Of a stretch of 64,000 bases of DNA, positions 15,261-17,101 are shown piece after piece. The stretch spans positions 195,058 through 259,057 of the forward strand of contig CAZTFB010000001.1 of NCBI GenBank assembly GCA_964612595.1. The letters run 5' to 3'. The notes under the pieces were generated by a model. That model worked only from the letters and a program-made list of their open reading frames with translations, made no database searches and was not told the origin of the DNA. Every line of letters starts with the position of its first letter. Position 1 is the stretch's first letter. A program made the translations under genes and the position numbers. The stretch is from an uncultured Gammaproteobacteria bacterium. Its GTDB lineage: Bacteria; Patescibacteriota; Microgenomatia; UBA1406; HO2-37-13b.

Positions 15261-15325
15261 GTCAGCTCCAATCTATACTATAGGTATTCTATTATGTTTA
15301 TCCTATAGTATAAATTGGAGCTGAC
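15261..15325 (-). repeat. 23S hairpin insert a
   Basis: 24-bp stem with 1 mismatch (GTCAGCTCCAATCTATACTATAGG / CCTATAGTATAAATTGGAGCTGAC) and a 17-nt loop. Confidence 0.8.
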
Positions 15326-15711
15326 TCCCTCCTACGCTAAACAGTTAAAAGCCTCTTATCAATAATAAGTTTCAGTAAAGCTCCCGGGGTCTTCTTGTCC
15401 AGGTGCAGGAAGGCCGCATCTTCACAGCCATTTCAATTTCGCCGAGCAGTAGTTCAAGACAGTTTTCAACTTGTTAAGCCATTCATGCAGGTCGGAACTT
15501 ACCCGACAAGGGGCTACGCTACCTTAGAACGGTCAGAGTTACCGCTGTCGTTCACCGGAGCTTGAATCAGAGCCTTGTCCGAAATAAATCGGACTCAACC
15601 CCAATTCTTGACTTACCGGCACTGGACAGGCCTCACCCCCTATACTTCCCGTTTCCGGTTTGCAGGGAGCTGTGTTTTTGCTAAACAGTCAGTTGAAAGT
15701 CATTTGCTGCG

Positions 15712-15776
15712 CCCAGCCCCAATTTGATACCCGATCTATGATTTTACTCTCGATCCGATCTCAAATTGGGGCTGGG
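15712..15776 (-). repeat. 23S hairpin insert b
   Basis: Perfect 16-bp stem CCCAGCCCCAATTTGA / TCAAATTGGGGCTGGG. Confidence 0.8.
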
Positions 15777-15974
15777 AGGACATATCCCTAAGTTACGTCC
15801 AGCTAATTTGCCGAGTTCCTTGAACCACCCTTACTCGATTGCCTTAGTCTTCTCGACCAATCCACCTGTGTCGGTTTGCGGTACGGACAAATATAAAACT
15901 CCCAGAACGGCTTTTCCCGGAAACATAACGAAGCAATCTCCCTCGACTTGCGTCAAAGTTGTATTCACAGCTCT

Positions 15975-16032
15975 CCAGCTCTATTTGAGCTCTATAGATT
16001 GTACAAAACCCATAAAACACAAATAGAGCTGG
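15975..16032 (-). repeat. 23S hairpin insert c
   Basis: Perfect 13-bp stem CCAGCTCTATTTG / CAAATAGAGCTGG. Confidence 0.8.
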
Positions 16033-16411
16033 ATTGCTGCTTAAACCCCCATATAGAAGGCACTGCATATCATATTTCGTCACCACAATGGTAATAACGC
16101 TTTATACTTGGTAGCCGAATATTAACGGCTTGTACATCGAGATCCGCCTTTCGGCAGGACCCTTAGATCCGACTAACCCTCAGCCGATGTACGTTGCTGA
16201 GGAAACCTTGGATTTTCGGCATCCTGAATTTTCATCAGGAGTATACGCTACTCATGCCAGCATTCTCACTTCTGTACGCTCCACCACACCTTACAGTTAT
16301 AGCTTCAGTGCATACAGAAAGCTCCCCTACCGCGACCTCAATATAAATATTGAAACCACCTCCAGCTTCGGTATATTGTTTGAGCCTCGATCATTTTCGG
16401 CGCAAGGTCTC

Positions 16412-16478
16412 ATACCAGCTCCATTTAATACTATAGTTGTCGCTATATAAGACCTATAGTACTAAATGGAGCTGGTAT
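16412..16478 (-). repeat. 23S hairpin insert d (helix-45 region)
   Basis: 25-bp stem with 1 mismatch (ATACCAGCTCCATTTAATACTATAG / CTATAGTACTAAATGGAGCTGGTAT) and a 17-nt loop. It has no counterpart in the E. coli sequence as I recall it. Confidence 0.8.
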
Positions 16479-17038
16479 ATTACGGTGAGCTGTTACGCTT
16501 TCTTTAAAAGGTGGCTGCTTCTAAGCCAACTTCCCGTCTGTCTTTGAAACCTCACAACCTTTACCACTTAACAATAATTTGGAGACCTTAGCTGGGAGTC
16601 TGGGCTGTTTCCCTTTCGACCATACTCGCTTATCCGAGCAAGTCTGACTCCTTTCGATTTTAACAGTGAGTATTCGGAGTTTGGTTAATCCTAGTTACCA
16701 AAGGCTCCTAGGACTATCCAGTGCTCTACCCCTCACCTTACTCGAAAAGGCTATACCTAAATATATCTCGGGGAGAACCAGCTATCTCTAAGTTCGATAG
16801 GCATATTACCACTAACCACAAGTCATCCCAAGTCATTTCACCGACAACGAGTGCGGGCCTCCCCCTGTCTTTCGACAAGGTTCACCCTGCTCATGGTTAG
16901 CTCACTTAGTTTCGGGTCTTTTAACAGCTACTGAACGCCCTATTCAGACTCGCTTTCGCTATGGCTTCCCAACTTAATTGGTTAACCTTGCAGCTGCTAA
17001 AAACTCGCTGGCTCATTCTTCAATAGGCACGACATCAT

Positions 17039-17101
17039 CCCGCTCTATTTAGCACTCTATATTCGATTGTAGAGTTGGTCTAAAATGCTAAATAGAGCGG
17101 G
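17039..17101 (-). repeat. 23S hairpin insert e (helix-25 region)
   Basis: Perfect 16-bp stem CCCGCTCTATTTAGCA / TGCTAAATAGAGCGGG, with an inner CTCTA..TAGAG stem. Confidence 0.8.

What the first reader, a model, noticed from the sequence alone, without database searches (positions are those of the whole stretch)
15261..17101. Family of five related long hairpin inserts inside the 23S gene, two at the classical IVS sites
Seen in sequence: there are five near-perfect hairpins of 58-67 nt with 13-25 bp stems, at 15261-15325 (a), 15712-15776 (b), 15975-16032 (c), 16412-16478 (d) and 17039-17101 (e). Their arms resemble each other although they sit in different rRNA domains. (a) CAGCTCCAATCTATACTATAG and (d) CAGCTCCATTTAATACTATAG are 18/21 identical, and both have 17-nt loops. 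(b) reads CAGCCCCAATTTGATAC. (c) CCAGCTCTATTTG..GCTCTATAGATTGTA parallels (e) CCCGCTCTATTTAGCA-CTCTATATTCGATTGTA. By from-memory alignment to E. coli, (e) replaces the tip of helix 25 and (d) is a true insertion in helix 45. Established knowledge: those two sites are where intervening sequences are excised by RNase III without religation, giving fragmented 23S rRNA in Salmonella, Leptospira, Campylobacter and others. The other three fall in variable regions (approximately the L1-stalk, H63 and H58/59). Inference: this is a dispersed palindromic element family colonising rRNA helix tips, possibly excised to yield a multi-fragment 23S. Caveat: the outermost GCTCC bases of (a) and (b) may belong to the native helices.
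Basis: partly seen in the sequence, partly recalled or inferred. Interest (0 to 1): 0.65.

Follow-up and report, generated by a model that had tools for sequence, protein, structure and literature searches.

The report
Mobile hairpin elements colonising 23S rRNA
A candidate-phyla-radiation bacterium carries six copies of one small hairpin-forming DNA element that its close relatives lack, five at the tips of surface helices of its only 23S rRNA gene and one beside a tRNA gene, showing how a mobile palindrome can lengthen or fragment a ribosomal RNA.

Summary
The five hairpins are real and lie at the stated coordinates. They are the five longest hairpins in the 64-kb window. The 23S gene is on the minus strand (13726-17676) of a Microgenomates-group CPR bacterium.

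All five share one boundary-anchored terminus, tCCAGCTCyAtTT. A sixth, 39-nt copy lies outside the rRNA at 41556-41594, between tRNA-Thr and a membrane-protein gene.

- **Relatives:** five 23S genes from three related lineages (91-95% identical, same tRNA-Ala-23S-topA order) lack all five hairpins. They carry short tetraloop-capped stubs instead. Three relatives also show an empty site at the tRNA-Thr locus.
- **Conclusion:** the hairpins are lineage-specific insertions of one palindromic element family, not ordinary helix variation.
- **Sites:** the sites are H25, H58, H63, H78 and a lineage-specific mini-helix branching from H42. Site (d) is not in H45, so only one classical IVS site is used.
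- **Stems:** they show 9 G·U and 0 A·C pairs in the rRNA sense, plus compensatory changes between copies. This points to selection on the RNA hairpin.

Still open: whether RNase III excises the hairpins (giving a six-piece 23S) or they stay as expansion segments, and what mobilises them. I found no transposase, no target duplication and no copy in public data.

The parts
13726..17676 (-). 23S rRNA gene, 3951 nt. It hosts the five hairpins and one group I intron. It is preceded by tRNA-Ala and followed by topA; there is no 16S or 5S gene in the window.
   Evidence: Rfam RF02541, 2175 bits, model positions 1-2925. Same tRNA-Ala-23S-topA order in relatives L006, L156, L157 and L159.
17038..17102 (-). 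Element e, 65 nt, replacing the tip of helix 25 (E. coli about 545). RNA sense: UCCCGCUCUAUUUAGC...GCUAAAUAGAGCGGGA. 21-bp stem.
   Evidence: Relatives have GGGUCUUG-GCGCAAGC-UAGGAU or CUUCAAC-GCAA-GUUGGGG at this site.
16414..16476 (-). Element d, 63 nt, replacing the tip of a lineage-specific mini-helix that branches from the 3'-strand bulge of H42 (E. coli about 1108/1109, base of the L11 stalk). It is not in H45.
   Evidence: Relatives have AUAUACY-CCGA-UUCG-UCGG-AGUAU.
15974..16033 (-). Element c, 60 nt, at the tip of helix 58. It has four G·U pairs in the rRNA sense. It aligns with e along its whole length.
   Evidence: Relatives have GCAGUAAC-GCAA-GGAGCUG.
15712..15776 (-). Element b, 65 nt, at the tip of helix 63, a helix that is reduced in CPR bacteria. 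It is the most divergent member (terminus CCCAGCCCCAAUUUGA).
   Evidence: Relatives have CCC-UGUAUC-GAGA-GAUAUA-GGG. H63 reduction in CPR: PMC9297842.
15261..15325 (-). Element a, 65 nt, at the tip of helix 78 (L1 stalk), a helix that is reduced in all Microgenomates. 22-bp stem, 17-nt loop. Its arms are 18/21 identical to those of d.
   Evidence: Relatives have GGGAGAC-UUCG-GUCGCC. PMC9297842.
41556..41594 (.). Sixth family member, outside the rRNA: TCCAGCTCTAAAATG-ggtacgaat-CATTTTAGAGCTGGA, a perfect 15-bp palindrome. It lies in the 77-nt divergent spacer between a membrane-protein gene (40974-41537, minus strand) and tRNA-Thr(cgt) (41615-41690, plus strand), just upstream of the tRNA's TGTTATAAT box.
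   Evidence: Model R1 hit, 19.4 bits. It is the only other hairpin in the window that starts [AC]GC[CT]C[CT] with at least 10 bp, against 0.07 per shuffle. Its 9-nt terminus is identical to that of c. Absent from relatives L161, L163 and L162, which have ...TATAACA-AG-TTTCA....
17677..17745 (-). 5' flank of the 23S gene. It pairs with the 3' flank (13660-13725) to form a long processing stem of the kind that RNase III cuts in other bacteria.
   Evidence: Read directly from the sequence: 5' UUAAGAAUUUGUUUGCGGAAUAUUAUA pairs with 3' UAUAAUAUUCCGCAAAUAGGUUCUUAA. That RNase III cuts it is inference.

Best explanation
**What it is.** The hairpins are copies of one small, non-autonomous, palindromic mobile DNA element. 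Copies are 39-65 bp with termini tCCAGCTCyAtTT / AAaTrGAGCTGGa.

**Where it went (shown).** On the terminal branch leading to this Microgenomates-group CPR bacterium, the element entered at least six sites. Five insertions replaced the tetraloop, and a few closing base pairs, of short solvent-exposed stubs of the single 23S rRNA gene: H25, an H42 side-branch, H58, H63 and H78. One entered a promoter spacer next to tRNA-Thr. The sites are tips of helices that tolerate insertions in E. coli.

**What it does in the RNA (shown and inferred).** In the transcript each copy stacks on the host helix as 21-27 bp of near-perfect duplex. Selection has since kept these stems paired in the rRNA sense. This is inferred from the excess of G·U over A·C pairs and from compensatory changes between copies.

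**How it inserts (inferred).** Insertion occurs at the DNA level without target duplication. It either prefers hairpin-loop or highly transcribed DNA, or survives only there.

**Fate of the RNA (my lean, not shown).** The duplexes are long enough to be RNase III substrates and are removed like classical intervening sequences. That would leave a 23S rRNA in up to six pieces. Retention as bacterial expansion segments is nearly as likely.
For: - **Family:** all six copies share a boundary-anchored terminus, with 7-11 of 12 identities in all 15 pairs. Whole-length similarity is a-d z=12.3 and c-e z=8.6. Model R1 finds only these six in 64 kb with the speed filters off.
- **Gain in this lineage:** 23S genes of L006/L007, L156/L157 and L159 are 95.2/95.5%, 94.7/94.6% and 91.3% identical to the window. 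All lack the five hairpins, and the flanks are identical right up to the stubs.
- **DNA-level mobility:** there is an empty site at the tRNA-Thr spacer in L161, L163 and L162. That copy sits upstream of the conserved extended -10 box, so it is probably not part of a stable RNA.
- **RNA-level constraint:** stems hold 9 G·U and 0 A·C pairs in the rRNA sense. The sense-strand fold is more stable than the antisense fold in 5 of 5 hairpins, for example c at -42.2 against -26.6 kcal/mol. Of 21 stem pairs, 7 change on both sides between copies, and 88.9% of cells are paired against 79.1% in shuffles.
- **Tolerant sites:** E. coli 23S accepts insertions in H25, H42, H58, H63 and H78 (PMC2441807).
- **RNase III plausibility:** the gene has a long 5'/3' processing stem. 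Short non-intron insertions in CPR 23S genes are presumed to be RNase III-type IVS (PMC11270868).
- **Bias toward the rRNA:** five copies lie in 3.1 kb of 23S, against one in about 3.8 kb of intergenic DNA.
Against: - I found no mobilising gene. A Pfam scan of about 40 ORFs shows no HUH/RAYT or DDE transposase and no RNase III. The window is only 64 kb of a genome of at least 496 kb.
- There is no target-site duplication at any site. Each insertion is a replacement: 3 nt at the tRNA-Thr site, and loop plus stem pairs in the rRNA.
- I found no copy elsewhere. An exact-pattern scan gave 0 hits in viral contigs and 109 unrelated hits in metagenome contigs, none in a 23S gene.
- Only one copy lies outside the rRNA, so 'dispersed' rests on a single locus. 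That palindrome could also act as an operator.
- The loops of a and d barely align, so the copies are not recent.
- The G·U bias could partly reflect C-to-T deamination of the non-template strand of a highly transcribed gene.
- No RNA data bear on excision.
Confidence: 0.62

Rival explanations
1. The hairpins are retained expansion segments. Whatever their origin, they stay in the mature 23S rRNA as rod-like extensions of H25, H42a, H58, H63 and H78, partly regrowing helices that CPR bacteria had shortened, and the rRNA is not fragmented. This rivals only the RNA-fate part of the best explanation.
For: - All five helices tolerate insertions in functional E. coli ribosomes (PMC2441807).
- H63 and H78 are reduced in CPR bacteria generally, and H78 in all Microgenomates (PMC9297842). 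H58, H63 and H78 are short stubs in the close relatives. All should therefore be free surface positions.
- Stems have been kept paired for a long time, with G·U intermediates and compensatory changes, as expected for structured expansion segments.
- At 57-65 nt the hairpins are shorter than most characterised IVS, which are 83-112 nt in Salmonella and Photorhabdus (PMC2672173).
Against: - Perfect duplexes of 21-27 bp are canonical RNase III substrates (established knowledge).
- Insertions in CPR rRNA genes were reported absent from transcripts (Brown et al. 2015, as cited in PMC9297842).
- Nothing in the sequence protects the stems from cleavage.
Confidence: 0.4
2. The hairpins spread by template switching or gene conversion within the gene, with no transposable element involved. 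One hairpin arose or arrived once. It was then copied onto other tetraloop-capped stubs by replication template switching at palindromes, or by short-patch recombination, without any dedicated enzyme.
For: - No target-site duplication, and every event is a replacement of a hairpin tip.
- No transposase in the window.
- Five of six copies lie within 1.9 kb of one gene.
- c and e share two U·G pairs in the same orientation, as expected if one was copied from the other.
- No copies in public collections.
Against: - The native stubs share no sequence homology with the element that could seed recombination.
- The tRNA-Thr copy is 24 kb away, in unstructured promoter DNA.
- The copies differ in length and interior, so at least three subtypes exist.
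Confidence: 0.2
3. The hairpins arrived by horizontal replacement of 23S segments from an unknown donor whose 23S already had these long helices. On this view they are ordinary lineage-specific helix variation imported by recombination.
For: rRNA insertions in CPR bacteria are scattered without regard to phylogeny (PMC11270868). The LAGLIDADG intron in the same gene is also absent from relatives and is a horizontally moving element.
Against: - Flanks are identical to the relatives right up to each stub, with no co-converted divergent tracts.
- Five separate short patches would be needed.
- The five helices resemble each other, which imported native helices would not.
- A sixth copy lies outside the rRNA, with an empty site in relatives.
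Confidence: 0.04
4. The similarity between hairpins is chance or compositional, arising from AT-rich stems closed by G-C pairs, and the expansions arose independently in place.
For: Local-alignment scores for b against the other hairpins are only marginal (z = 1.3-2.0).
Against: Anchored termini match at 7-11 of 12 positions in all 15 pairs. a-d and c-e align over their whole length. Shuffles give 0.07 such hairpins per window against 6 observed.
Confidence: 0.02

Closest known systems
Bacterial 23S rRNA intervening sequences (IVS) of Salmonella, Yersinia, Leptospira, Campylobacter, Coxiella and Rhodobacter, excised by RNase III without religation
   Same: They replace the tip of a surface helix (H25 for element e). 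They form a long stem continuous with the host helix. They are sporadic among close relatives. They have long been suspected to be mobile or horizontally acquired (PMC11270868, PMC2672173, PMC4990558).
   Different: - There are five in one gene, four of them at non-classical sites (H42 branch, H58, H63, H78), and none at H45.
- All five are related in sequence to each other and to a copy outside the rRNA.
- They are shorter (57-65 nt) than most characterised IVS.
- Excision has not been shown here.
[quoted passage not shown] 2015; Tsurumaki et al. 2024, PMC11270868)
   Same: Same bacterial group. The insertions lie at the top or base of stem-loops. Short non-intron insertions there are presumed to be IVS. 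A LAGLIDADG group I intron is present in the same gene.
   Different: That survey counted only insertions of at least 100 bp, so elements of this size were not catalogued. No family of mutually related hairpins, and no extra-rRNA copy, was described.
REP / REPIN elements mobilised by RAYT transposases (PMC3116915, PMC3733652)
   Same: They are short imperfect palindromes that form hairpins. They are non-autonomous, leave no target-site duplication, and are thought to act through single-stranded hairpin DNA.
   Different: REPs carry a GTAG or CGTC head, occur in tens to hundreds of extragenic copies, usually lie 3' of genes, and are not known inside rRNA. Here the terminus is TCCAGCTC, no RAYT was found in the window, and 5 of 6 copies are inside the 23S gene.
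Bacterial MITEs such as Neisseria Correia elements, whose transcribed inverted repeats are cut by RNase III (from my own knowledge)
   Same: They are small non-coding elements with terminal inverted repeats. When transcribed they fold into a duplex that RNase III can process.
   Different: MITEs make target-site duplications (TA for Correia) and are 100-150 bp or longer with distinct internal sequence. Here there is no duplication, and the whole element is a single hairpin.
Very small dispersed repeats of cyanobacteria (Elhai et al. 2008), and palindromic or GC-cluster or double-hairpin elements of fungal and algal organelle genomes that invade rRNA genes (from my own knowledge; see also PMC4524435)
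   Same: They are tiny mobile hairpins that insert into and extend existing hairpins, including in stable-RNA genes. They lie in variable regions of rRNA and have no known enzyme.
   Different: They occur in different lineages and have unrelated sequences. Those families have many genome-wide copies, whereas this family is concentrated in one rRNA gene of a reduced CPR genome.
Eukaryotic and Asgard-archaeal rRNA expansion segments (ES7 at H25, ES27 at H63, ES30 at H78)
   Same: Same helices, and the same architecture of coaxial extension at helix tips. Experimental insertions at these helices are tolerated in E. coli (PMC2441807).
   Different: Expansion segments are ancient, lineage-wide, and not known to derive from a single repeated element. 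Here they are recent, strain-level, and related to each other.

Membership tests
23S rRNA intervening sequence (IVS) | Extra sequence that replaces the apical part of a 23S helix and forms a stem continuous with that helix | tested here: met
   Covariance-model alignments and comparison with relatives. Folds that include the flanks continue into the native stems.
23S rRNA intervening sequence (IVS) | Located at the classical sites, helix 25 and/or helix 45 | tested here: inconclusive
   Element e is at H25. None is at H45, which is ordinary in this gene. Elements a, b, c and d are at H78, H63, H58 and an H42 branch. IVS at other helices are known in other bacteria, so this is not disqualifying.
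23S rRNA intervening sequence (IVS) | Excised from the precursor by RNase III without religation, so the mature 23S is fragmented | not testable with these tools
   No RNA data. No RNase III signature in the 64-kb window and none in the Pfam scans. The rest of the genome could not be retrieved.
23S rRNA intervening sequence (IVS) | Sporadic presence among close relatives | tested here: met
   Absent from five related 23S genes that are 91-95% identical.
MITE (miniature inverted-repeat transposable element) | Terminal inverted repeats | tested here: met
   The consensus terminus tCCAGCTCyAtTT is present on both arms of all six copies.
MITE (miniature inverted-repeat transposable element) | Target-site duplication flanking the insertion | tested here: not met
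   Filled and empty sites compared at all six loci show replacement of 3-16 nt and no direct repeat.
MITE (miniature inverted-repeat transposable element) | Termini shared with an autonomous IS element in the genome | tested here: inconclusive
   No transposase gene and no further terminus in the 64-kb window. The remaining 430 kb or more was not available.
REP / REPIN | Conserved GTAG or CGTC tetranucleotide head on a 20-40 bp palindrome | tested here: not met
   The termini read TCCAGCTC, CCCAGCCC or GTCAGCTC. Definition from PMC3733652.
REP / REPIN | Associated RAYT (Y1 HUH) gene and many extragenic copies | tested here: inconclusive
   None in the window, and only one extragenic copy in 64 kb. 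Whole genome not available.
Mobile element in general (presence/absence polymorphism with precise boundaries at unrelated loci) | The same sequence at several unrelated sites, with empty sites in relatives | tested here: met
   Six sites, and an empty site was recovered for each.
rRNA expansion segment | Retained in the mature rRNA on the ribosome surface | not testable with these tools
   The helices are insertion-tolerant in E. coli (PMC2441807). Retention in this organism is unknown.

The most novel reading that the evidence does not exclude
This would be a structure-targeting mobile hairpin that homes to tetraloop-capped helix tips, and more generally to stable-RNA loci. In one short evolutionary step it would have re-lengthened five CPR-reduced 23S helices or broken the 23S rRNA into six pieces. 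That would make it a natural, still traceable example of rRNA expansion segments or IVS originating as copies of a single selfish palindrome, moved by an unrecognised enzyme or by an enzyme-free template-switch mechanism that leaves no target duplication.
Probability: 0.25. Interest if true: 0.8.

Novelty: new variant of a known kind. Interest (0 to 1): 0.6.

Why it matters
- **Origin of rRNA insertions.** How expansion segments and intervening sequences arise is an old open question. Mobile-element origins have been proposed but rarely caught with both filled and empty sites. This locus offers six related insertions with ancestral states preserved in close relatives. Five are in one essential single-copy gene, at exactly the helices that grow in eukaryotes (H25/ES7, H63/ES27, H78/ES30) and that CPR bacteria had shrunk.
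- **A gap in existing surveys.** Surveys of CPR rRNA insertions that use a 100-bp cut-off miss a class of small elements.
- **Possible record fragmentation.** If RNase III removes the hairpins, this organism would have one of the most fragmented bacterial 23S rRNAs known.
- **Possible rapid expansion.** If the hairpins are retained, this is a rapid bacterial expansion of rRNA.
- **Practical consequence.** Such inserts affect rRNA-based probes, primers, phylogenies and rRNA gene callers for CPR genomes.

Tried and rejected
- **H45 assignment of (d).** Rejected. The covariance model pushed the insert into the H44 loop, but the sequence GCGUAACAGCUCACCGU matches the consensus through E. coli 1108, and H45 is separately present and normal.
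- **Possible solo arm.** AAAAAUGGGAGCUC in the tRNA-Ala/23S spacer resembles one arm. Rejected, because it is conserved in L006, L156 and L157 and is therefore native.
- **R1 hit at 4341-4397.** It scored 21.6 bits but lies mostly inside an ORF and lacks the terminus motif, so I ignored it.
- **Pattern scans of public data.** GCTCYATTTAR-N{20,50}-YTAAATRGAGC gave 0 hits in viral contigs. It gave 109 hits in metagenome contigs, all unrelated hairpins (mostly one human-gut locus) and none in a 23S gene. The pattern is exact, so diverged copies would be missed.
- **Same-species Logan contigs.** I looked these up through topA, the phosphatase gene and the LAGLIDADG gene. They break before reaching any hairpin. 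An early note that L001 lacks the intron was wrong, because L001 merely starts 3' of the intron site.
- **Spurious ORFs across hairpins c and d.** Looking these up to find other assemblies gave nothing on record.
- **RNase III signature and Pfam scans** of the window: no RNase III and no transposase.
- **CCAGCTC heptamer.** It is neither enriched nor avoided outside the elements (4 observed against about 4.4 expected), so it does not look like a restriction or uptake site.
- **Common tetranucleotide to the left of the insertions** (IS200/IS605-style target): none seen.
- **Source genome.** A 495,732-nt NCBI contig carries the identical topA, but it could not be retrieved or named.
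Full report
**Setting**

Rfam places a complete bacterial 23S rRNA gene on the minus strand at 13726-17676. It scores 2175 bits and is 3951 nt long against a 2925-position model. It is preceded by tRNA-Ala(UGC) and followed by topA. No 16S or 5S gene lies anywhere in the 64 kb.

The closest topA relatives are a Candidatus Woesebacteria MAG (L006, 84% amino-acid identity) and further uncultured genomes. A neighbouring gene has its best named homologue in Microgenomates bacterium OLB23. [quoted passage not shown] The identical topA sits on a 495.7-kb NCBI contig that I could not retrieve.

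**The observation**

They are the five longest hairpins in the whole window.

Against shuffles that preserve each hairpin's pairing, a-d scores z=12.3, c-e z=8.6 and c-d z=4.5. Read from the insert boundary inwards without gaps, all 15 pairs of elements match at 7-11 of 12 positions, where about 3 are expected. The consensus terminus is tCCAGCTCyAtTT.

**Where they sit**

The evidence comes from covariance-model alignments and a MAFFT alignment to E. coli 23S.

| Element | Site |
|---|---|
| e | tip of H25 (E. coli about 545) |
| c | tip of H58 |
| b | tip of H63 |
| a | tip of H78 in the L1 stalk |
| d | 3'-strand bulge of H42, after GCUCACCGU (E. coli about 1108/1109), at the base of the L11 stalk |

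Hairpin d is not in H45. H45 is present separately and is only 7 nt longer than the model. Only one classical IVS site is therefore used.

**Relatives decide the nature of the hairpins**

The order tRNA-Ala-23S-topA is conserved, which let me recover five related 23S genes from three lineages:

- L006 and L007
- L156 and L157
- L159

They are 95.2/95.5%, 94.7/94.6% and 91.3% identical to the window's gene and are 2878-2898 nt long (L007 is a 2349-nt partial). All lack the five hairpins and the 816-nt intron.

At each site the relatives have a short stub capped by a tetraloop:

- H25: ...GCAA...
- H42 branch: CCGA-UUCG-UCGG
- H58: AAC-GCAA-GG
- H63: UGUAUC-GAGA-GAUAUA
- H78: GAC-UUCG-GUC

The flanks are identical right up to the stubs, so no foreign 23S patch was imported. 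L159 is the outgroup and the other three lineages are about equally distant from one another. Parsimony therefore puts all five gains on the window's own branch.

The extra H42 mini-helix is a feature of the whole clade. The window only lengthened it. H63 and H78 are regions that CPR bacteria, and for H78 all Microgenomates, have reduced (PMC9297842).

**A sixth copy outside the rRNA**

I built a covariance model from the five hairpins (A1/R1) and ran it with filters off. Besides the five, it finds one convincing extra hit at 41558-41592. The sequence is TCCAGCTCTAAAATG-ggtacgaat-CATTTTAGAGCTGGA, and its 9-nt terminus is identical to that of c.

A direct scan for hairpins of at least 10 bp that start [AC]GC[CT]C[CT] finds four of the five 23S copies plus this one, against 0.07 per shuffled window; a is missed because of a C·A mismatch on the plus strand. 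A relaxed scan allowing one mismatch recovers all six.

The copy lies in the 77-nt divergent spacer between a membrane-protein gene and tRNA-Thr(CGU). Homologous spacers from three relatives (L161, 91% protein identity; L163, 80%; L162, 77%) lack it. They read ...GATATTATAACA-AG-TTTCATTTATA..., where the window reads ...GATATTATAACA-[39 nt]-TTCATTTATAAT....

The copy sits just upstream of the conserved TGnTATAAT box of the tRNA, so it is probably not part of a stable RNA. This is direct evidence that the family moves, or is copied, at the DNA level. It does not simply grow out of rRNA helices.

**Constraint on the copies**

In the rRNA sense the stems contain 9 G·U pairs and no A·C pair. Each hairpin folds more stably in the sense than in the antisense orientation, most clearly c at -42.2 against -26.6 kcal/mol.

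Two of the U·G pairs are shared by c and e. These two therefore have the same orientation and a common ancestor that was already selected in that sense. Across the five copies, 7 of 21 stem pairs change on both sides, and 88.9% of cells are paired against 79.1% in shuffles.

The loops of a and d hardly align while their arms are 86% identical. I infer that the copies have been resident long enough to diverge, and that selection has kept the RNA duplex. Deamination of the non-template strand could contribute to the G·U bias.

**Mechanism: what is shown and what is inferred**

Shown:
- One sequence family occupies six sites that are empty in relatives.
- Insertion replaces a few nucleotides and makes no target duplication.
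- The distribution is strongly skewed. Five copies lie in 3.1 kb of 23S, in loops that make up a tiny fraction of it. One lies in about 3.8 kb of intergenic DNA.

Inferred:
- The element either targets hairpin-loop or heavily transcribed DNA, or survives only where a coaxial duplex is harmless.
- All five helices accept insertions in functional E. coli ribosomes (PMC2441807).

Not found:
- No mobilising gene is in the window. There is no HUH/RAYT or DDE transposase.
- The serine recombinase and TraG-like genes at 1807-6460 belong to an integrative element that also has counterparts in relatives L156 and L157.
- The absence of target duplication is atypical of DDE-type MITEs. It fits HUH-type or template-switch mechanisms.

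**RNA fate**

Near-perfect duplexes of 21-27 bp are RNase III substrates by established knowledge. The gene has a long 5'/3' processing stem of the RNase III type.

The CPR literature treats short non-intron rRNA insertions as probable IVS (PMC11270868). It also reports that insertions are missing from transcripts (Brown et al. 2015, cited in PMC9297842). I therefore lean slightly towards excision, which would give up to six 23S fragments. Retention as expansion segments is almost as likely, and nothing available here can decide between them.

**Comparison with what is known**

- **Classical IVS.** The elements behave like these in position, architecture and sporadic distribution. They differ in number, in their mutual relatedness, in using H42a, H58, H63 and H78, and in having a copy outside the rRNA.
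- **REP/REPIN.** They lack the GTAG/CGTC head and the copy number of REPs (PMC3733652, PMC3116915).
- **MITEs.** They lack the target duplication.
- **Tiny dispersed repeats and organellar palindromes.** From my own knowledge, they most resemble in behaviour the very small dispersed repeats of cyanobacteria and the palindromic elements that invade organellar rRNA genes.
- **CPR surveys.** The systematic CPR survey counted only insertions of at least 100 bp, so this class was not catalogued. Four literature searches found no description of a family of related hairpins in CPR rRNA.

**Verdict**

The mobile-palindrome inference is supported by filled and empty sites at six loci. Excision remains untested. 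I rate this a new variant of a known kind (IVS or small palindromic mobile elements), of moderate-to-high interest.

Noticed in passing
window 14114-14929 (minus strand): An 816-nt insertion in the peptidyl-transferase region of the 23S gene, between E. coli U2500 and C2501. It carries a LAGLIDADG_2 homing-endonuclease ORF (14248-14826, Pfam E=6.5e-39) and a sub-threshold group I intron core (RF00028, 28.8 bits, E=3e-5, 14121-14285). It is absent from all five related 23S genes. It is present and 100% identical in an independent Logan contig (L002).
   Followed up: partly
window 1-64000: The rRNA genes are unlinked. tRNA-Ala-23S stands alone between a histidine-phosphatase/ATP-synthase cluster and topA, and no 16S or 5S gene lies within 64 kb. 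The same arrangement is conserved in relatives L006, L156, L157 and L159.
   Followed up: partly
window 16407-16482; L006, L156 and L159 at the homologous position: The whole clade has an extra mini-helix (AUAUACY-CCGA-UUCG-UCGG-AGUAU) branching from the 3'-strand bulge of H42 at the base of the L11/GTPase-associated stalk. E. coli and the Rfam consensus have no helix there. Element d only lengthened it.
   Followed up: partly
window 1807-6478: A probable integrative element next to tRNA-Glu. It has a TrwB/TraG-like type IV coupling protein (1807-4359, minus strand) and a large serine recombinase (4886-6460, plus strand) that overlaps the tRNA-Glu gene (6404-6478). Relatives L156 and L157 carry a similar module (resolvase, HTH, DUF87/TraG) at the corresponding place.
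   Followed up: no
window 14533-14580: A hairpin with 23-nt arms, 83% complementary and only 2 nt between the arms, lies inside the LAGLIDADG ORF of the intron. It is unrelated in sequence to the family. It gave a chance-level match to a miRNA model.
   Followed up: no
window 39447-39503: An 18-nt inverted repeat (TATGTCCGCATACGACAG / CTGCCGTATGCGGGCGTA) whose 3' arm overlaps the first bases of tRNA-Gly(ccc). It could be a leader structure that competes with the acceptor stem.
   Followed up: no
window 37376-37687: A small stand-alone GIY-YIG nuclease gene next to tRNA-Asp. It is conserved at the same place in relatives L161 and L162, so it is not specific to the hairpin-bearing lineage.
   Followed up: partly
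window 17856-18403: An unusually long (548-nt) non-coding stretch, for this compact genome, upstream of tRNA-Ala-23S. At its far end (18341-18414) a 21-nt inverted repeat runs 11 nt into the 3' end of the phosphatase gene. This is presumably the rRNA promoter region plus a terminator.
   Followed up: no
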